Sequence record: MH791411.1
Strand: one strand, 5' to 3'
Length of the DNA stretch: 64,000 nucleotides
From: Escherichia phage Ecwhy_1
Below are positions 1,554-62,694 of the stretch, piece by piece. The notes under the pieces were generated by a model. The model did no database searches. It worked only from the letters and a program-made list of their open reading frames with translations, and was not told the DNA's origin. The position numbers were made by a program, and so were the translations under genes. Numbering within the stretch: position 1 is the stretch's first letter; the number at the start of each line of letters is the position of its first letter.

Positions 1554-4500
1554 ATGACTAATAATTTTAAGTTTCAACCTACACAGATGGCTGAAGCAGT
1601 ACAGAAGAAGCTTTTCATAAAAAGATTGCCTGAGTGGATGCAAGGCTTAGAAGATATTCAGAAAGTCAGTGATGATGTTATCCAACAATGGTTTAATCCG
1701 GCTGAAAACGAATTAGTTGACGGCTACATTGGTGACATGGGTTCTCCGGCAGCAGCAGGGAACATCTTCTTACACGAGTCAACAGTCGCACGTCAACTAT
1801 ATCAGTTGTCCACTGCGTATGTCTCAAGAAATGATGACTCCAGCATTCGTTCAATTCAATTTTATGATGATCTAGTTGGCTATATGAATCATTACGGTGC
1901 ACTAACCGAAAATGAAAGCCGTTTGTTTAATGGTAAGTTCTATTCATGGACCCCACCAATTAACCCAAATAAAATGAACAACTACAGTTCATACCTATGG
2001 GATTCCAAGAATAGCTATAATATCACAACTCCAGATTATATTGTAATGGAACGTGGTGCAGAAAATGGTAACACTTGGTCACTACAAAACTTCTGGTACA
2101 CATTAGGTGAAACTTTAGAAGATGGTACTATCCTAACTGAAGAACTAATGCAAGATTCCCGTTTTGTTCGTGCTCGTGCACCAATTATCGAATACAATAA
2201 AAATATCGAACTAATGAACTACGGTACTAAATTCCGTGGGACAGTTGATTTGTTCTCTGATATTATTAAACCTGAAGATATCGTACAAAAAGATATTAAC
2301 AGCGGTATACGTATTGATGGTATTATTCCACAAGATGGTATGCGTATTCTTTTCACCAGTATTGGTAACAATGGTGAAAACAACCGAATTTATAAAGTAT
2401 ATGTTAAACGTATGCAAGATGGAACACGTGTGTATGGTCTAGCATTAGATCCAGACGAAGAATCTGAAAGCCGTCCGAGTGGTGAACCACAAGATGGTGA
2501 CGTAGTTCTTATTATCAAAGGTAATGAATTTGGTAACAGTTCCATGTATTGGGACGGTTCTCATTGGATTCAAGCACAGTCTAAAACTTCTGTGAACGTA
2601 TTTCCACAATTCCAATTGTATGACCGTAATGGTGTTAAACTAAACAACACTACTACCTATCCATCAAGTACTTTTACTGGTTCTTCACTATTTGGTTTTA
2701 AAATTAACTATAATTATGCAACTGATAGCGTTTATGGTTATAATATTGAACTAGGTGATTACAATTATTACACATATGAGAATTTCCTACAATCAACTCG
2801 TTATACTTACGAGCATTTGGGTGTGGAAGTTGAAATTGATGGACTATATTACTATAACGTAATTGGTGAAGGTAATACAATGAACCTAGAAACTGATTGG
2901 GTTCGTAGTACTGAATACTCCAAACAATATGTTAAACAAACTCCACAGGTTGAACGTACAGTAATGTTCCGCGTGTTCAGTACTGTTTATGACATGGAAA
3001 GTTTCAAAGACCCAGTTGAAGGAATGTATGCTTATGTAATTGAAGTTGACAGAACTTATCAATATTACAAAGCAGAACGTGAAACATATCTTGATTGGCA
3101 TGTTATCGTTGGTGATGGGGTACAAAGCGTTAAGTACAATCATACATTTGAATTGGCACAAAAAGTACTAGATAATTCTGATGATATTATCGAACTAGTT
3201 GTTGATGGTGTGGAAATAAAAGAATACACCAAAACTGTAGTTAATAATCAAGTACAAAGTATTACAATTGATAGCTCTGTTGATTTGGATGAAGATTCTG
3301 TTGTACAAATCAGAACTTATAGTAGCACTATCACTCCTAATAAAGAGTTGGGTGCATATGAAGTTCCAATTAACCTACAAAATAACCCATATAATTCAAA
3401 CATTGAATACATCAACCAAGGTGATTACACCCTGCACTTCCAAGATATTATTCAAAAGAATATTACATCTGGTTCTGCTGATGACTTTAACAATTACGAA
3501 GAACGTTTGGCTGCTGGTTTGGTTAATAATGGTGTAGGCACTAAAATTATTCAAAACGAAGCGTCCATGTTACCACTAATGGCACATACCGCTAATGAAG
3601 ATATTGATTTGTTTGAATCAATCATGTTTATGCAAGCAGAATACTTCCGCTTCATTAACAAGTTCAACACTCAAATGCTTCGTTTGTATGAAGAAGACCC
3701 AAGTGCTTTTCTTGGTAATAGTGCATCAAACATCGTAGATGCGATTCTAACAGCTATTAATATGGGACGTGATAGTACATTCCCATTCTACTATGACAAC
3801 GTTGCAAGCACTGCTGGGTTTATTCGTGCATTTGTCCCACCAACTCCACAGTTCTTGGGTATTTTGCAAGCTTATACACCACAAAAAGCAACATTCTTAA
3901 CTGCTGGTAGTAAATCTAGCTGTTATAATATCAGTCATACTGGTATTATTTCAAAAGCATACCGTGTTATCAATGGTGTTGATAAAATGGATGACGTAGT
4001 TTTTGAATTGGAAAATCGTATCTTTAATAGTATTGATCTTACTTTCAAGGATATTGATTATAAACCAGTACTAAACAGTGAAGACCTATTCCCAACTCCA
4101 TATTTCACTGGTACTGATTATAGTGCAGAAGAAAAGAAAACTCTATTACTACGTGGTTACATTAACTTCACAGCAACCAATGGCATTAGTAACAGTACTC
4201 ATGATTATGATGCAAATAACTGGAGAACTTGGAACTATACTGGTAGTTATTATGTTGTTGATGGTCAACGTACTGAAATTCCTGCTCGTGGTTCATGGCG
4301 TGCAATCTATACTGACCAATATGGCACATATCGTCCAGCAACCCATCCGTGGGAAATGATGGGCTTCTCTCAACGTCCTACTTGGTGGAACCAAGAATAC
4401 GAACCAACCGCAGTTCAAGTTGGTGAACGTGAGGGTGATGTTGTTTATGTGTATGAAGCACTAGTAATGAATGAAAATGGTGATTTGGTCCCAAGTGGAT

Positions 4501-59168: not shown

Positions 59169-60284
59169 TTAGAACATTTGCTTGATTGCTTCAATACGCA
59201 ATTCAGCAACAAAATCACGAATCTCCGATGTTTGGAGTTCACCATCTTTCACTAACTGCTGAATATCAGGTAATTCAACATCAGTATAACGATCATAAAC
59301 TTTAATAATCAAATCTTCAAGTTCAGAATCAATTTCTTTGTTCAAAATGAAGTTTTCCAGTACTTTGTAAAGGAAATCTTCACCACCATTGTTTTTGATA
59401 TTCATATCCAGTAAGATTTGTCCCATTTCAACTGGGGTCTTCTTACGGAAGGTTTTAATATCTTCACGGAAACGCTTGATGTAATTACTAAACTTAACGT
59501 ACTTAACTGGAACCTTAATGGAACCGTTAAGTACTGAATCATTATTTACTTCTTCATTTTCAAGAAGTACTGTCCATAAGAAATATGGTTTATATTCTTC
59601 TGTACAATTTGCAGCGATAGAATCAATTAATTCCAGACGTTTCTTGGTAACTGGAACTGTAGTAAATGCCTTTTCGTAATAACCAAATTGTACCAGAGTT
59701 TTGATAAACTTGGAAGGGTTTTCTTCAGAAAGTGCTTTTTCGAATTCAACAAAAACACGATCTGGAACTAGATGGTCTAGTTCACCAGTACTAACCATAT
59801 CTTTACACATTGTCATAGTATCATCATGGATTGTAAAGTCGGAGTAACGCGTAGCGAAACGGGCCAAACGTAGAACACGCAATGGATCTTCTTTAAAGTG
59901 TTCTGATACATGACGAAGTACTTTGTTCTTGATATCAGCTTTCCCGCCATAAGGGTCGATGTGAATCTGGAGTACTGGATCATATGCAATACTATTGATT
60001 GTGAGATCACGACGATATAGATCTTGTTCTAGTGTCACACCTTTTGTATTCACTTCGAAGCCACCATATCCAGTACCAGTTTTACGCTCAGTACGGGCTA
60101 ATGCGTGTTCATTACCTTCTGGACTTAGATATACAGGGAAATCCTTACCTACTTGCTTGTATCCAATACTTTGCAAGTATTTAATATCGGATTCGGTAGC
60201 ACCGACAATAACATAATCTTTGTCTTTTGCACGGATACCCATTAAACGGTCACGAACGTAGCCACCAACCAAATACTTTTTCAT
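59169..60284 (-). CDS. cca: CCA-adding tRNA nucleotidyltransferase (class II, head/neck/body only)
   Basis: MKKYLVGGYVRDRLMGIRAKDKDYV, GYKQVGKDFPVYLSPEGNEHALARTERKTGTGYGGF, RRDLTINSIAYD and EDPLRVLRLARFATRY are collinear with the E. coli CCA N-terminal half. No HD domain. Confidence 0.85.
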   Translation of the reverse strand: MKKYLVGGYVRDRLMGIRAKDKDYVIVGATESDIKYLQSIGYKQVGKDFPVYLSPEGNEHALARTERKTGTGYGGFEVNTKGVTLEQDLYRRDLTINSIAYDPVLQIHIDPYGGKADIKNKVLRHVSEHFKEDPLRVLRLARFATRYSDFTIHDDTMTMCKDMVSTGELDHLVPDRVFVEFEKALSEENPSKFIKTLVQFGYYEKAFTTVPVTKKRLELIDSIAANCTEEYKPYFLWTVLLENEEVNNDSVLNGSIKVPVKYVKFSNYIKRFREDIKTFRKKTPVEMGQILLDMNIKNNGGEDFLYKVLENFILNKEIDSELEDLIIKVYDRYTDVELPDIQQLVKDGELQTSEIRDFVAELRIEAIKQMF

Positions 60285-60285
60285 A

Positions 60286-60408
60286 TCATTCCCCCATCAA
60301 CCAATCACGTAGACGTTCCCAGAAGCCTTTTGGCTGATATTCTGGATATTCATATTCATCTGTTCCTTGCTCGGAAACACCCCAATCTTCTTCTAATACT
60401 GTAATCAC
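60286..60408 (-). CDS. Acidic micro-ORF A (40 aa), translationally coupled to cca
   Basis: Not in the ORF track (below its length cutoff). GGAGG-cattGTG start. Translation VITVLEEDWGVSEQGTDEYEYPEYQPKGFWERLRDWLMGE. Stop TGA lies 1 nt before the cca ATG. A paralog sits at 61418-61543. Confidence 0.4.
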   Translation of the reverse strand: MITVLEEDWGVSEQGTDEYEYPEYQPKGFWERLRDWLMGE

Positions 60409-60419
60409 AATGCCTCCAA

Positions 60420-60857
60420 TTAAATTAATCTATCACGTAGACGGTCGTAATATTTTGCATGTATATCTAGTATACACTGAAATGATGGATAGTCAATACT
60501 AAATGTATCATCAATGAACATGTACTGAAGAAGTGTTTCTGGTCCATTATCAACAACTGGTAATGTCCCTTCTTTTTTTGATAGGGTGTGCCACATCAAC
60601 TCACTTTCAATATGGTGAGTTGCGTATGTCAATTCAATCTTACTTTTTCGTAGTAAAATTAACAATTCATCATTGTCATCGAGTGCATTACGAAATTTAA
60701 TACGAACTGTACCCTGGAAATTATTAGTGTACATAACACGATGATGATTGTATGAAATTAAACCACGTCTTTCAGTACTGATTTCATGTTCAGCAAAGTA
60801 CTTTAACGTTTCATTAAATTTTGGAATTTTACTTGCGTCCACCAATGTAATCCTCAT
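60420..60857 (-). CDS. Hypothetical protein (about 145 aa), paralog of the adjacent 137-aa protein
   Basis: Shares the motif LLQYMFIDDTFSIDY with YLQYQFIDDTFGFDF in the adjacent 137-aa gene. Confidence 0.5.
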   Translation of the reverse strand: MRITLVDASKIPKFNETLKYFAEHEISTERRGLISYNHHRVMYTNNFQGTVRIKFRNALDDNDELLILLRKSKIELTYATHHIESELMWHTLSKKEGTLPVVDNGPETLLQYMFIDDTFSIDYPSFQCILDIHAKYYDRLRDRLI

Positions 60858-61242
60858 ATACATGATATACGTTCATTATACTATTATATAGTTCAAAGTC
60901 AAATCCAAATGTGTCATCAATGAACTGGTATTGCAGATATTCTTCATATGAAGCATCAATTGGTAATGATCCAGCACGAATATCATCTGATTTAAAATCG
61001 TCAATGTATCTTAATGTTATGTCTTCATCAACAGTAATATCTATCATCAACGTATCGTCACTGTACCAAAGGTTATGTATACGGATGTAAAGTTTCTTAG
61101 CACGATTAAAACTAGATACATTGGTATTGCGATGGAGTTTATCTAAGTTGAAGTAAAAACCAGGCTCGTTTTTACTTATGTTTTTCATATGTTCTGCAAT
61201 CGAATCAATTATATAATCAATGTTGAATGTTCTCATAAACAA
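60829..61242 (-). CDS. Hypothetical protein (137 aa), paralog of the adjacent 145-aa protein
   Basis: Tandem duplicate. Its 3' end overlaps the start of the next gene by about 29 nt. Confidence 0.5.
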   Translation of the reverse strand: MFMRTFNIDYIIDSIAEHMKNISKNEPGFYFNLDKLHRNTNVSSFNRAKKLYIRIHNLWYSDDTLMIDITVDEDITLRYIDDFKSDDIRAGSLPIDASYEEYLQYQFIDDTFGFDFELYNSIMNVYHVYEDYIGGRK

Positions 61243-61418
61243 ATCTCATAGCGGTTTGTGTTTGGATTGTAGCAATAGGTATCATTAATTTTAACACCAG
61301 GTTTAAGTGTTATTGTTGTTCCTACTTCAGTACTGGGTTCTGCATCACAATAAATCATCACACCAACGCCACAGATTAAAGCTAAGATACAAATAATAGC
61401 ACATATTGTATATTCCAT
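61233..61418 (-). CDS. Small single-pass membrane protein (61 aa)
   Basis: MEYTICAIICILALICGVGVMIYCDAEP…: one hydrophobic helix followed by a Cys-containing soluble tail. SD gatGGGGGAGtgATG. The ORF-track start is a TTG 6 codons upstream. Confidence 0.45.
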   Translation of the reverse strand: MEYTICAIICILALICGVGVMIYCDAEPSTEVGTTITLKPGVKINDTYCYNPNTNRYEICL

Positions 61419-61543
61419 CACTCCCCCATCAGCCAATCAAAGAGACGTTCCAAGAAGCCATTAGGCTTGTATTCTGGTTCTTTGTTCACGTCGGTTTCTT
61501 GTTCATAAACACCCAAATCTTCTTCAAGTATAATTGTATTCAT
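61418..61543 (-). CDS. Acidic micro-ORF B (41 aa), paralog of micro-ORF A
   Basis: Not in the ORF track (below its length cutoff). MNTIILEEDLGVYEQETDVNKEPEYKPNGFLERLFDWLMGE. Its ATG overlaps the upstream TAA by 1 nt and its TGA overlaps the downstream ATG by 1 nt. Confidence 0.4.
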   Translation of the reverse strand: MNTIILEEDLGVYEQETDVNKEPEYKPNGFLERLFDWLMGE

Positions 61544-61926
61544 TATATATTATACTCTATTATACCATCATCACTTTCACCAGACAACCACTTAATGTAA
61601 TTTACTTTGTAGAAATTAATCAATGCATAAGTGCTGTACTCAATCAACAAGTGATCTCTCAAGAATTCGTCTTGAGCATATCCATCTTCATCCAAATCTG
61701 TTGGAATATCAGTTTCTTTGTCTTGAATGTGTAAAGTTATTGTGTCTTTTGTTATACAAATTGTTATATGATTACAAATAGTAATGATGATTATGCTATA
61801 TGTTCTATTGAAATATATTGTGAAATCTTCATTAATATTATATCTTCGACTTTCTTCATATTTCTGATATGGGTCGAAATGTGATAAATTAACTTTAATT
61901 AATGTATTTCTCAACTTACACCTCAA
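61544..61926 (-). CDS. Hypothetical protein (127 aa)
   Basis: ORF translationally coupled to micro-ORF B. Confidence 0.45.
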
Positions 61927-62307
61927 TCATATAAAGTAATTATACATTTTATTGTACAATATAAAAAGGTCTTTAACATTATCATAAGTAATATCAGATA
62001 CATCATGAATTAATGATAACTGGAAAAATGATGCTTCGTCTATCTCTACTGGGATTATAACATCATAGTCTTCGTCAATTTTATGGGTGTAGTATTTTAT
62101 GTGATCAGCATTCAACACAAGGTTGTATTTTGTATCATCTTCAATTAATCCGACAAATTGAGATTTTTGATTAATAAAAAATCCAATCCCAACACAACGG
62201 TTATCTGGATATGGATAGTACCATCTATTAATAACTAGGTGTTCAGGTAAGTCCATATCATGTGTTGATATTAAAGATTTTACAATTCCCATCCAGGAAT
62301 AATTCAT
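61927..62307 (-). CDS. Hypothetical protein (126 aa)
   Basis: ORF abutting the next gene with no gap. Confidence 0.45.
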   Translation of the reverse strand: MNYSWMGIVKSLISTHDMDLPEHLVINRWYYPYPDNRCVGIGFFINQKSQFVGLIEDDTKYNLVLNADHIKYYTHKIDEDYDVIIPVEIDEASFFQLSLIHDVSDITYDNVKDLFILYNKMYNYFI

Positions 62308-62327
62308 AATTAAAACTCCATAAGAAA

Positions 62328-62349
62328 AGGGACAGAATAATCTCTGTCC
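62328..62349 (-). terminator. Rho-independent terminator (minus strand)
   Basis: gggacaga-ataatc-tctgtccc, 8-bp stem with T/A-rich flanks, after the HPF gene. Confidence 0.65.
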
Positions 62350-62361
62350 CTTTATTATATC

Positions 62362-62694
62362 TTACTCTTCGTCTTCAGTCAAGTCTTCTTGAACTGGATG
62401 TTCGGGGTGGTTACGGCGATGCAATTTGATGCTTTTGTCTTTACCTAAGACAGTTTCCATTTTTTCAAATGAATCACCAATTGCTTTGTATAAATCTGCA
62501 TCATCGGCGGTGACAATCTTACCACCTGATGTTAAAGTTACGGAATATTGATTCTTATGCTCTTTCTTCACATGAACACCGATATAAAGTACTGAAGAAT
62601 CACTAAACTTCGTTAGTGCATTTGCTTCTGCATGAATCGCGTCATTGATTGCTGGAGTAATATCAACATTACCTTGGATAACTAAATCTAGCAT
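62362..62694 (-). CDS. hpf: Ribosome hibernation-promoting factor/RaiA family protein
   Basis: MLDLVIQGNVDITPAINDAIHAEANALTKF…VHVKKEHKNQYSVTLTSGGKIVTADDADLYKAIGDSFEKMETVLGKDKSIKLHRRNH is collinear with bacterial HPF (M.LNITG.HVEITPAL…L.V.G..I.A….D.Y.AID….KL.RQL.KHK). Confidence 0.7.
   Translation of the reverse strand: MLDLVIQGNVDITPAINDAIHAEANALTKFSDSSVLYIGVHVKKEHKNQYSVTLTSGGKIVTADDADLYKAIGDSFEKMETVLGKDKSIKLHRRNHPEHPVQEDLTEDEE

What the first reader, a model, noticed from the sequence alone, without database searches (positions are those of the whole stretch)
60286..61543. Duplicated acidic micro-proteins (40-41 aa) translationally coupled to downstream genes
- Two unannotated small ORFs share a strong motif, I.LEED.GV.EQ.TD…EPEY.P.GF.ERL.DWLMGE*, and about 75% DNA identity over about 120 bp (60290-60415 versus 61422-61545).
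- Copy A has GGAGG-N4-GTG and ends 1 nt before the CCA-enzyme ATG.
- Copy B overlaps the stop of the upstream gene (TAATG) and the start of a 61-aa membrane protein (TGATG).
- Highly acidic, Trp/Tyr-containing peptides of this size recall DNA mimics, anti-restriction proteins and small anti-defence inhibitors. They could alternatively be translational couplers or regulatory leader peptides.
- Conservation of the peptide sequence, not only the RNA, argues that they are translated.
Basis: seen in the sequence. Interest (0 to 1): 0.65.

Follow-up and report, generated by a model that had tools for sequence, protein, structure and literature searches.

The report
Conserved jumbo-phage microprotein, with decaying duplicate
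The two 40-41-residue acidic ORFs are real: copy A belongs to a small microprotein family of unknown function that RaK2-like jumbo phages always keep between their ribosome-hibernation and tRNA CCA-adding genes, while copy B is a redundant second copy that is losing its function.

Summary
Two minus-strand ORFs, 60286-60408 (40 aa) and 61418-61543 (41 aa), share 25/37 residues and about 75% DNA identity.

The window is an Asteriusvirus-like E. coli jumbo phage, 99.6% identical to phage Turkey3. Both ORFs are already annotated there as hypothetical proteins and match PHROG 34272 (unknown function).

Copy A is a genuine protein-coding gene.
- dN/dS among orthologues is 0.03-0.24.
- The motif MIxVLEEDWGVS(D/E)...SFW(D/E)(K/R)LxDWL is kept in phages of Xanthomonas, Erwinia, Salmonella and Klebsiella, with synonymous codon turnover.
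- An exhaustive HMM search found only 14 representatives. All are 38-65 aa and none is fused to another domain.
- Every examined member lies between the HPF and CCA-enzyme genes.

Copy B occurs in only 6 phage records.
- It has lost the family-invariant Trp9.
- It carries two in-frame stops in phage ph0011.
- It differs from the ph0011 copy by 0 synonymous and 6 non-synonymous changes.

The two-copy state is the union of two single-copy architectures (121Q-type and JNE01-type).

Function is undetermined. The model shows a disordered acidic peptide with a C-terminal amphipathic helix. I infer that it binds a conserved partner through its two motifs. DNA-mimic, leader-peptide and RNA-element readings are not supported.

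The parts
60286..60408 (-). Microprotein copy A (40 aa, GTG start; VITVLEEDWGVSEQGTDEYEYPEYQPKGFWERLRDWLMGE). This is the functional family member.
   Evidence: ORF. phrog_34272 at E=3e-31. Full-length match in about 35 Asteriusvirus records. dN/dS 0.03-0.24. 99-100% identical in relatives whose flanking gene is only 82-92% identical.
60413..60417 (-). Shine-Dalgarno GGAGG, 4 nt upstream of the copy A start codon
   Evidence: Sequence. The same site precedes an ATG start in 121Q-type phages.
61418..61543 (-). Microprotein copy B (41 aa, ATG start; MNTIILEEDLGVYEQETDVNKEPEYKPNGFLERLFDWLMGE). Redundant paralogue evolving under relaxed constraint.
   Evidence: ORF. Present in only 6 phage records. 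W9L, S12Y, G15E and W31L fall at conserved positions, and W9 is invariant in 21 family members. The ph0011 orthologue has TAG and TAA in frame. Comparison with the ph0011 copy gives 0 synonymous and 6 non-synonymous differences.
59169..60284 (-). tRNA CCA-adding enzyme (371 aa). Downstream neighbour of copy A and the 3' boundary of the interval that always holds the microprotein.
   Evidence: Pfam PolyA_pol plus PolyA_pol_RNAbd; phrog_2244.
61233..61418 (-). 61-aa protein with an N-terminal hydrophobic segment and several cysteines. Downstream neighbour of copy B.
   Evidence: phrog_4189. 74% identical to the JNE01 orthologue.
60420..60842 (-). FAM140: member of the 120-150-aa paralogous family that fills the HPF-CCA interval. 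Upstream neighbour of copy A.
   Evidence: phrog_20693. AF2 pLDDT 87.8, topology alpha-beta6-alpha2. No confident PDB fold relative.
60829..61236 (-). FAM135: paralogue of FAM140
   Evidence: phrog_20693. BLASTP to FAM140 E=2e-8.
61543..61914 (-). FAM123: family member immediately upstream of copy B. Gained or lost together with copy B.
   Evidence: Family HMM E=4e-23. Absent together with copy B from 121Q-type genomes.
61927..62307 (-). FAM126: family member, first gene after the HPF terminator-like hairpin
   Evidence: phrog_36582. Family HMM E=5e-28.
62362..62694 (-). HPF/RaiA-like ribosome hibernation factor. This is the 5' boundary of the interval.
   Evidence: Pfam Ribosomal_S30AE.
61419..61878 (-). 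Segment (most of FAM123 plus copy B) that is absent from 121Q-type genomes. The indel ends exactly at the 3' end of copy B.
   Evidence: blastn of the window against 121Q.
60286..61225 (-). Segment (FAM135, FAM140 and copy A) that is absent from JNE01/Turkey5-type genomes. The indel ends exactly at the 3' end of copy A.
   Evidence: blastn of the window against JNE01 and Turkey5; annotation tables.

Best explanation
Copy A is a translated, selectively maintained microprotein of a small family (phrog_34272). The family is restricted to RaK2-like jumbo phages and is part of their lysozyme - HPF - [variable paralogue array] - CCA enzyme - NUDIX - glutaredoxin module.

The peptide is strongly acidic and largely disordered on its own. 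It has two conserved elements:
- an N-terminal motif, h-h-E-E-D-W-G-V;
- a C-terminal amphipathic helix, S-[FW]-[WY]-[DE]-[KR]-L-x-[DE]-[WF]-L.
An acidic linker of variable length joins them.

Inferred, not shown: the peptide works by docking these two elements onto a protein partner and folding on binding. The partner must be conserved across hosts as distant as Xanthomonas and E. coli. It could therefore be a conserved phage protein of the same module (the CCA enzyme, HPF, or the adjacent paralogue family) or a highly conserved host translation or RNA factor.

In Asteriusvirus the last codons of the gene also carry the ribosome-binding site of the next gene.

Copy B is a second, anciently diverged allele. 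The window combines the JNE01-type architecture (FAM123 - micro - 61aa - CCA) with the 121Q-type architecture (61aa - FAM - FAM - micro - CCA). Being redundant, copy B is drifting towards loss of function.
For: Shown:
- Purifying selection on copy A, omega 0.03-0.24.
- Copy A type versus JNE01 type: dS about 1.4-1.7, omega 0.06.
- The N-motif is kept through synonymous changes, including TCN/AGY serine switches, across four phage clades.
- 12 clusters were found in 5.8 billion proteins. 14 representatives were found in an exhaustive scan of 1.84 billion proteins, all 38-65 aa.
- Every examined member lies between the S30AE/HPF gene and the PolyA_pol/CCA gene where both flanking genes are on the contig. 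This includes the four most distant ones.
- AF2 models only helix 27-38 with moderate confidence; the rest is low.
- Linker length varies from about 6 to about 35 residues.

Copy B:
- Two stops in ph0011, and loss of the invariant W9.
- 0 synonymous and 6 non-synonymous differences between the window and ph0011 copies.
- Mismatch density is 4.8% in ph0011 copy B against 1.6% in the adjacent FAM123 gene. Copy A is 99% identical next to a 92% identical neighbour.

Architecture: collinearity breaks lie exactly at the 3' ends of the two micro genes.
Against: - No direct evidence of expression. A lysate proteome of phage fENko-Kae01 flags the neighbouring HPF, CCA and NUDIX proteins but not its microprotein.
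- Copy B is intact and nearly identical in the four reliable two-copy records (Turkey3, fEgEco12, WPEC5, EC.P1). The whole FAM123-microB-61aa block is 99-100% identical among them, so this says nothing about selection. A changed but retained function for copy B is not excluded.
- RaK2, GAP32 and Eneladusvirus phages have full-length CCA homologues but no detectable microprotein. The CCA enzyme therefore does not strictly need it.
Confidence: 0.6

Rival explanations
1. The microprotein is the constant partner of the variable 120-150-aa paralogue family (FAM). Each cassette of FAM gene(s) plus micro would encode a complex, for example an effector with a small regulator or inhibitor. The duplication would then reflect gain of a second cassette.
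For: The gene immediately upstream of the micro is a FAM member in every lineage except the XaC1 type, often with overlapping stop and start. The indels separating the three Asteriusvirus architectures are FAM(s)+micro blocks that end at the micro stop codon. FAM members detectable by HMM in the 64-kb window occur only in this interval.
Against: The interval is packed with FAM genes, so adjacency is expected by position alone. XaC1-type phages have the micro but no detectable FAM member. RaK2 has a FAM member but no micro. There is one micro per array of 1-5 FAM genes, so no 1:1 pairing. No complex prediction was possible.
Confidence: 0.2
2. Both copies are functional and copy B has acquired a new function, that is, a new target specificity after W9L, S12Y and G15E.
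For: Copy B keeps an open frame, an ATG start and the C-terminal helix motif in Turkey3, fEgEco12, WPEC5 and EC.P1.
Against: Those records share a 99-100% identical block, so the intact frame carries little information. ph0011 has two nonsense codons. The changes hit the only invariant aromatic residue of the family. All differences between the two copy B lineages are non-synonymous. Most Asteriusvirus genomes lack copy B.
Confidence: 0.15
3. DNA-mimic, anti-restriction or anti-defence inhibitor: the acidic peptide imitates nucleic acid and blocks a host DNA- or RNA-binding defence protein.
For: Net charge about -8, pI 4.06. It sits in a module with tRNA-repair and translation genes, which jumbo-phage comparative work interprets as counter-defence against RNase effectors (PMC7824862). 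T7 gp5.9, at about 52 aa, is a small acidic mimic (from my own knowledge).
Against: There is no rigid fold to display charges: pLDDT 61 and a single helix. The conserved residues are hydrophobic or aromatic motifs plus EED, not a periodic acidic surface. No sequence relative in PDB or Pfam. The PADLOC library holds defence proteins, not counter-defence proteins, so it was not informative and was not run.
Confidence: 0.08
4. Pure translational coupler or regulatory leader peptide: only the act of translating the ORF matters, for expression of the CCA enzyme or the 61-aa gene.
For: The stop codon lies 1 nt before, or overlaps, the next start codon. The next gene's Shine-Dalgarno sequence (GGGGGA) lies in the last codons.
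Against: The peptide sequence is under strong purifying selection and is conserved across genera while the DNA diverges. The downstream gene differs among lineages: CCA enzyme, 61-aa gene, FAM member, or a 355-aa zinc-finger protein. Munch has its own separate Shine-Dalgarno sequence. There is no attenuator-like structure; z-scores are -0.85 and -0.44.
Confidence: 0.07
5. Untranslated repeat or RNA element.
For: Copy B in ph0011 keeps 95% nucleotide identity despite two stop codons.
Against: No Rfam hit. Folding energy is no better than shuffled sequence. Copy A shows a codon-level selection signature. The similarity of ph0011 copy B is explained by recent divergence, because its flanks are 96-98% identical.
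Confidence: 0.02

Closest known systems
PHROG phrog_34272 / GenBank hypothetical proteins (121Q gp538, PBECO4 gp034, XaC1_258, CPT_Munch_219, ENKO_221)
   Same: It is the same family. Copy A matches the 40-position profile end to end (E=3e-31) and copy B matches at E=3.5e-16. The orthologues sit in the same genomic position.
   Different: Nothing differs in kind. The family has no assigned function, and no paper on it was found.
Small acidic phage inhibitor proteins that mimic nucleic acid (Ocr, Arn, T7 gp5.9, phi29 p56); recalled from my own knowledge
   Same: Small size, strongly negative charge, phage early or accessory gene context.
   Different: Those are folded, usually dimeric scaffolds of 50 aa or more with ordered acidic surfaces. 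This peptide is 38-53 aa and predicted mostly disordered. Its conservation lies in two hydrophobic/aromatic motifs. No sequence or structural relation was detected.
Intrinsically disordered acidic toxin-binding tails of type II antitoxins (for example the MazE C-terminus ...NIDWGEPKDKEVW); recalled from my own knowledge
   Same: Acidic, disordered, Trp-containing segment that would fold on a partner. There is a short 'DWG' resemblance.
   Different: There is no DNA-binding domain, no adjacent recognisable toxin and no significant similarity. A PDB sequence search at E<=10 returns only a nucleoporin. This is an analogy only.
Translationally coupled small ORFs in phage operons
   Same: Stop/start overlap, with the next gene's Shine-Dalgarno sequence inside the ORF's 3' end.
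   Different: Here the peptide sequence itself is conserved across genera, and the downstream gene is not constant.

Membership tests
phrog_34272 microprotein family | Full-length match to the family profile | tested here: met
   Copy A E=3.2e-31 over positions 1-40 of 40. Copy B E=3.5e-16 over positions 4-40.
phrog_34272 microprotein family | Invariant N-terminal core E-E-x-W-G-V (E6, E7 and W9 invariant in 21 diverse members) | tested here: met
   Copy A has LEEDWGV. Copy B has LEEDLGV, so W9 is lost and this feature is not met for copy B.
phrog_34272 microprotein family | Location between the HPF (S30AE) and CCA-enzyme (PolyA_pol) genes of a RaK2-like jumbo phage | tested here: met
   Both copies lie between 62362-62694 (HPF) and 59169-60284 (CCA enzyme). 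The same holds in all other loci examined where both flanking genes are on the contig.
Functional protein-coding gene (versus pseudogene) | dN/dS well below 1, and an intact frame in all orthologues | tested here: met
   Copy A: omega 0.03-0.24, intact in all loci read and full-length in about 35 tblastn matches. Copy B: not met. It has two stops in ph0011 and 0 synonymous against 6 non-synonymous differences.
DNA-mimic / anti-restriction proteins | Strong net negative charge | tested here: met
   11 D+E against 3 K+R, pI 4.06.
DNA-mimic / anti-restriction proteins | Stable fold that presents acidic side chains in a DNA-like array | tested here: inconclusive
   AF2 with a 13-sequence alignment gives pLDDT 61 and pTM 0.26, with only helix 27-38 modelled. 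A fold formed on oligomerisation or on binding cannot be excluded.
DNA-mimic / anti-restriction proteins | Binds and inhibits a DNA-binding enzyme | not testable with these tools
   Needs biochemistry or genetics.
Regulatory leader peptide / attenuator uORF | A downstream RNA switch or terminator whose formation depends on translation of the uORF | tested here: not met
   No terminator-like site lies in or after either ORF. RNA folding z-scores are -0.85 and -0.44. No Rfam family matched.
Regulatory leader peptide / attenuator uORF | Fixed association with the regulated gene | tested here: not met
   The downstream gene varies: CCA enzyme, 61-aa gene, FAM member, or 355-aa zinc-finger protein.
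Relative of the 120-150-aa paralogue family (FAM) of the same interval | Detectable profile-profile or HMM similarity | tested here: not met
   hhalign probability 0.1%. hmmsearch scores are at background level. Only the FAM140 tail shows a local resemblance (p about 0.003 before correction for six tests).

The most novel reading that the evidence does not exclude
The microprotein is a dedicated bipartite binding peptide of the phage's translation and tRNA-maintenance module. It might be a regulatory subunit of the phage CCA-adding enzyme or HPF. It might instead inhibit a conserved host tRNA- or ribosome-targeting factor, or act as the constant partner of the fast-evolving paralogue array. 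On this reading the HPF-CCA interval would be a previously unrecognised counter-defence or host-takeover island, with one constant peptide and a variable set of effectors.
Probability: 0.2. Interest if true: 0.6.

Novelty: new member of a known kind. Interest (0 to 1): 0.3.

Why it matters
- It gives a firm example of a 40-aa phage gene that is real. The evidence is a selection signature, cross-genus conservation and strict synteny. Gene callers handle such genes inconsistently: both micro copies and the 61-aa gene are missing from the ph0011 annotation, and the micro is mislabelled as 'nudix hydrolase' or 'tRNA nucleotidyltransferase' in WPEC5 and CMSTMSU.
- It shows that the apparent duplication is a mosaic of two genome architectures, with one copy decaying. 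This is a small, clean case of redundancy followed by loss of function in a jumbo phage.
- It marks the HPF-CCA interval as a hypervariable island holding 1-6 paralogues of an uncharacterised alpha-beta6-alpha2 fold plus one constant microprotein. That makes it a sensible target for functional screens.
- The function itself remains unknown, so the immediate significance is modest.

Tried and rejected
1. Homology of the micro to the C-terminal part of the neighbouring FAM family: rejected (hhalign probability 0.1%; HMM scores at background). Only the FAM140 tail gives a nominal p of about 0.003.
2. Homology to GAP32_185 and to the C-termini of pEa_SNUABM_47 gp184 and fHe-Yen9-04 g182, which sit in the same position and look similar by eye (MLDEYMGWDD...NFWGSLIxxDIL): not supported (hhalign probability 1.3-1.9%).
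3. Resemblance of ERLRDWLMG to the CCA-enzyme N-terminal motif GGYVRDRLMG: it is limited to Asteriusvirus and absent from other clades, so it is treated as chance.
6. IMG/VR scan: only one locus, a duplicate of a contig already held.
7. Promoter scan: 29 hits against 29.1 expected, so uninformative.
8. Literature and proteome supplement: nothing on this protein.
9. The 1-nt deletions in both copies in CMSTMSU lie in the G-run of an UNVERIFIED record that has 20 gaps in 2.6 kb. They are treated as sequencing errors.
Full report
**What is in the sequence**

All genes in 58.4-63.7 kb are on the minus strand. Copy A is 60286-60408 (GTG start, 40 aa). Copy B is 61418-61543 (ATG start, 41 aa).
- The two share 25/37 residues (E=8e-17).
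- DNA identity is 77% over 114 nt.
- A tblastn of both peptides against the whole 64-kb window finds no third copy.

- GGAGG-CATT-GTG upstream of copy A.
- TGA-T-ATG between copy A and the CCA-adding enzyme gene (59169-60284).
- TAATG between the upstream 123-aa gene and copy B.
- TGATG between copy B and a 61-aa hydrophobic, Cys-rich protein (61233-61418).

**Where the window comes from, and whether the ORFs are known**

The region is 99.6% identical to Escherichia phage Turkey3. It is 84-97% identical to about 35 Asteriusvirus jumbo phages such as 121Q and PBECO4.
- Both ORFs are annotated in Turkey3 as hypothetical proteins.
- Copy A is gp538 of 121Q.
- Both match PHROG phrog_34272, which has unknown function.
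- Pfam and PDB sequence searches give nothing.

**Copy A is a real, constrained gene**

Within Asteriusvirus, pairwise Nei-Gojobori dN/dS for copy A is 0.03-0.24, with dS up to 0.95.

In close relatives of the window, copy A is 99-100% identical while the adjacent FAM140 gene is only 82-92% identical.

Homologues exist in phages of four other host genera:
- Xanthomonas (XaC1_258),
- Erwinia (Hallingskeid),
- Salmonella (Munch, 7t3, SE_PL),
- Klebsiella aerogenes (fENko-Kae01).

The motif MIxVLEEDWGVS(D/E) is kept through synonymous changes: Leu TTA/CTA/CTT/CTC, Gly GGT/GGA/GGC, Ser TCC/TCT/AGT/AGC.

The family is small and always stand-alone:
- A word-indexed search of 5.8 billion proteins found 12 clusters.
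- An exhaustive HMM scan of 1.84 billion representatives found 14, all 38-65 aa and never fused to another domain.
- In a 21-sequence alignment, E6, E7 and W9 are invariant. M1, I2, G10 and V11 are nearly so.
- A second conserved block, S-[FW]-[WY]-[DE]-[KR]-L-x-[DE]-[WF]-L, follows an acidic linker of about 6 to about 35 residues.

**Strict synteny**

Every member whose context could be read lies between the HPF/RaiA-like gene (Pfam Ribosomal_S30AE) and the CCA-adding enzyme gene (PolyA_pol), where both flanking genes are on the contig. These belong to a module ordered lysozyme - HPF - ... - CCA - NUDIX - glutaredoxin. This holds for the four most distant members as well, with E-values of 2e-4 to 8e-4.

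The micro is directly upstream of the CCA gene in 121Q-type, XaC1-type and Munch-type phages and in several metagenomic contigs. It is separated from the CCA gene in others:
- by one to three genes in Hallingskeid-like phages,
- by the 61-aa gene in JNE01 and Turkey5,
- by an inserted 355-aa treble-clef zinc-finger protein in phage A4.

RaK2, GAP32 and Eneladusvirus phages have full-length CCA homologues (58-67% identity) but no detectable microprotein. So the CCA enzyme does not need the micro, and coupling to the CCA gene is not obligatory.

**The rest of the interval**

The other genes between HPF and CCA belong to one fast-diverging family of 120-150 aa (FAM). Its members share an (S/T)EEE(F/Y)FQxS motif.
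- The window has four members, and the family HMM finds none elsewhere in the 64 kb.
- AF2 gives a confident model for FAM140: pLDDT 87.8, pTM 0.83, topology alpha-beta6-alpha2.
- There are structural relatives among uncharacterised proteins of PBECO4, RaK2, GAP32, CBB and fHe-Yen9-03.
- The micro is not detectably related to this family.

**Origin and fate of copy B**

Copy B is found in only six records: Turkey3, fEgEco12, WPEC5, EC.P1, CMSTMSU and ph0011.

Three architectures exist:

| Type | Gene order |
|---|---|
| 121Q-type | HPF - FAM - 61aa - FAM - FAM - micro - CCA |
| JNE01/Turkey5-type | HPF - FAM - FAM123 - micro - 61aa - CCA |
| Window | HPF - FAM - FAM123 - microB - 61aa - FAM - FAM - microA - CCA |

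The window is the union of the other two. Pairwise blastn shows what the window has extra:
- relative to JNE01, 61225-60286 (FAM135, FAM140 and micro A);
- relative to 121Q, 61878-61419 (FAM123 and micro B).
Each break lies exactly at the stop codon of a micro gene.

The single JNE01/Turkey5 copy has copy B's position and flanks but keeps the family consensus (EEDWGVSEQGTDEY). Copy A against this allele gives dS of about 1.4-1.7 and omega 0.06. The two alleles therefore separated long ago. Two histories fit: an old two-copy state with reciprocal losses, or recombination between the two single-copy architectures within the shared 61-aa gene. I cannot tell which.

In the two-copy phages, copy B has changed at conserved positions: W9L, S12Y, G15E, E18V, Y19N, K28N and W31L.
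- In ph0011 it carries TAG at codon 9 and TAA at codon 13.
- The window and ph0011 copies differ by 6 non-synonymous and 0 synonymous substitutions.
- In ph0011 the mismatch density in copy B (4.8%) is three times that of the adjacent FAM123 gene (1.6%).
- Copy B is intact in four reliable records. However, the whole FAM123-microB-61aa block is 99-100% identical among them, so this says nothing about selection.
- The 1-nt deletions in CMSTMSU lie in a G-run of an UNVERIFIED record full of indels.

I conclude that copy B is a redundant paralogue under relaxed constraint. Acquisition of a new function cannot be excluded.

**What it is not**

- An RNA element is unlikely. There is no Rfam hit in the window, and folding z-scores are -0.85 and -0.44.
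- A leader peptide is unlikely. The peptide is conserved, the downstream gene varies, and there is no attenuator.
- A DNA mimic is unsupported. Only the charge fits (pI 4.06). AF2 with the family alignment gives pLDDT 61, with only helix 27-38 (KGFWERLRDWLM) modelled.

**How it most likely works (inference)**

Two short conserved motifs joined by a linker of variable length, strong acidity and disorder in isolation are the anatomy of a peptide that folds on a partner. The N-terminal hydrophobic strand plus the EEDWG turn would dock at one site. The amphipathic helix (F29/W30/L33/W36/L37 face) would dock at another.

The N-motif is invariant in phages of Xanthomonadales and Enterobacterales. 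The partner should therefore be either a phage protein common to all of them (the CCA enzyme, HPF, NUDIX, or the FAM or small neighbours) or a very conserved host component of translation or RNA metabolism. The constant position inside a translation and tRNA-maintenance module favours that functional area. Comparative work on jumbo phages interprets CCA-adding enzymes as part of RNA repair against host RNase effectors (PMC7824862). No paper on this peptide was found. A lysate proteome of fENko-Kae01 flags its neighbours but not the peptide.

In Asteriusvirus the last codons (ATG GGG GAR) double as the Shine-Dalgarno sequence of the next gene. This explains the extra DNA-level conservation of the 3' end shared by both copies.

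**Verdict**

Copy A is a real, already catalogued but uncharacterised microprotein family. Copy B is a decaying duplicate produced by modular rearrangement. The function is unknown. The finding is of moderate-to-low interest unless a partner is identified.

Noticed in passing
window 60420-62307 (-): 61927-62307, 61543-61914, 60829-61236, 60420-60842: Array of four diverged paralogues (120-150 aa, motif (S/T)EEE(F/Y)FQxS) fills the HPF-CCA interval. Copy number varies from 1 to about 6 among related phages. AF2 gives a confident alpha-beta6-alpha2 fold (pLDDT 87.8). There is no convincing PDB relative, only a weak p32/Mam33-like topology. The only structural relatives are uncharacterised jumbo-phage proteins.
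   Followed up: partly
window 60296-60318, 60424-60446, 61428-61450: A 23-nt motif recurs at the 3' ends of micro A, FAM140 and micro B. It encodes ERLRDWLM, DRLRDRLI and ERLFDWLM. The micro A versus FAM140-tail protein alignment scores above shuffles (p about 0.003, six tests). This is not seen for other micro/FAM pairs. It is either chance or a local conversion.
   Followed up: partly
window 61233-61418 (-): 61-aa protein with an N-terminal hydrophobic segment and several cysteines (phrog_4189). It is conserved in Asteriusvirus and is the shared gene at which the two single-copy architectures could have recombined.
   Followed up: partly
L015 (Escherichia phage A4) 3133-4200: A 355-aa protein with a treble-clef zinc finger (DUF4379) is inserted exactly between the microprotein and the CCA gene. 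It may be a mobile endonuclease-type insertion.
   Followed up: partly
window 62326-62353, between HPF (62362-62694) and FAM126: An 11-bp G+C-containing hairpin followed by a T-rich tract on the coding strand. It is annotated as a terminator in phages G17 and UE-S1. A near-consensus TTGACT-17-TATAAT promoter-like site lies just upstream of it (62382-62354).
   Followed up: no
L017 (ph0011), L034 (WPEC5), L036 (CMSTMSU): Annotation problems in public records. ph0011 annotates neither micro copy nor the 61-aa gene. WPEC5 labels micro A 'nudix hydrolase'. CMSTMSU labels both micro copies 'tRNA nucleotidyltransferase' and has many frameshifts.
   Followed up: no
L026 (GAP32) 3289-3498; L027 (pEa_SNUABM_47) 3115-3498; L028 (fHe-Yen9-04) 3124-3504: Proteins directly upstream of the CCA gene in phages that lack the microprotein end with motifs that resemble it by eye (M(L/F)DEYMGWDD ... 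NFWGSLIxxDIL). GAP32_185 is only 69 aa. Profile comparison does not support homology (probability 1.3-1.9%).
   Followed up: yes
L008, L009, L031 (Hallingskeid-like metagenomic contigs): NUDIX and glutaredoxin are fused into one 227-aa protein downstream of the CCA gene. They are separate genes in the window and in most relatives.
   Followed up: no
window 1-64000: No tRNA or tmRNA genes and no Rfam family at gathering threshold in the whole 64-kb window, although it encodes a CCA-adding enzyme.
   Followed up: no
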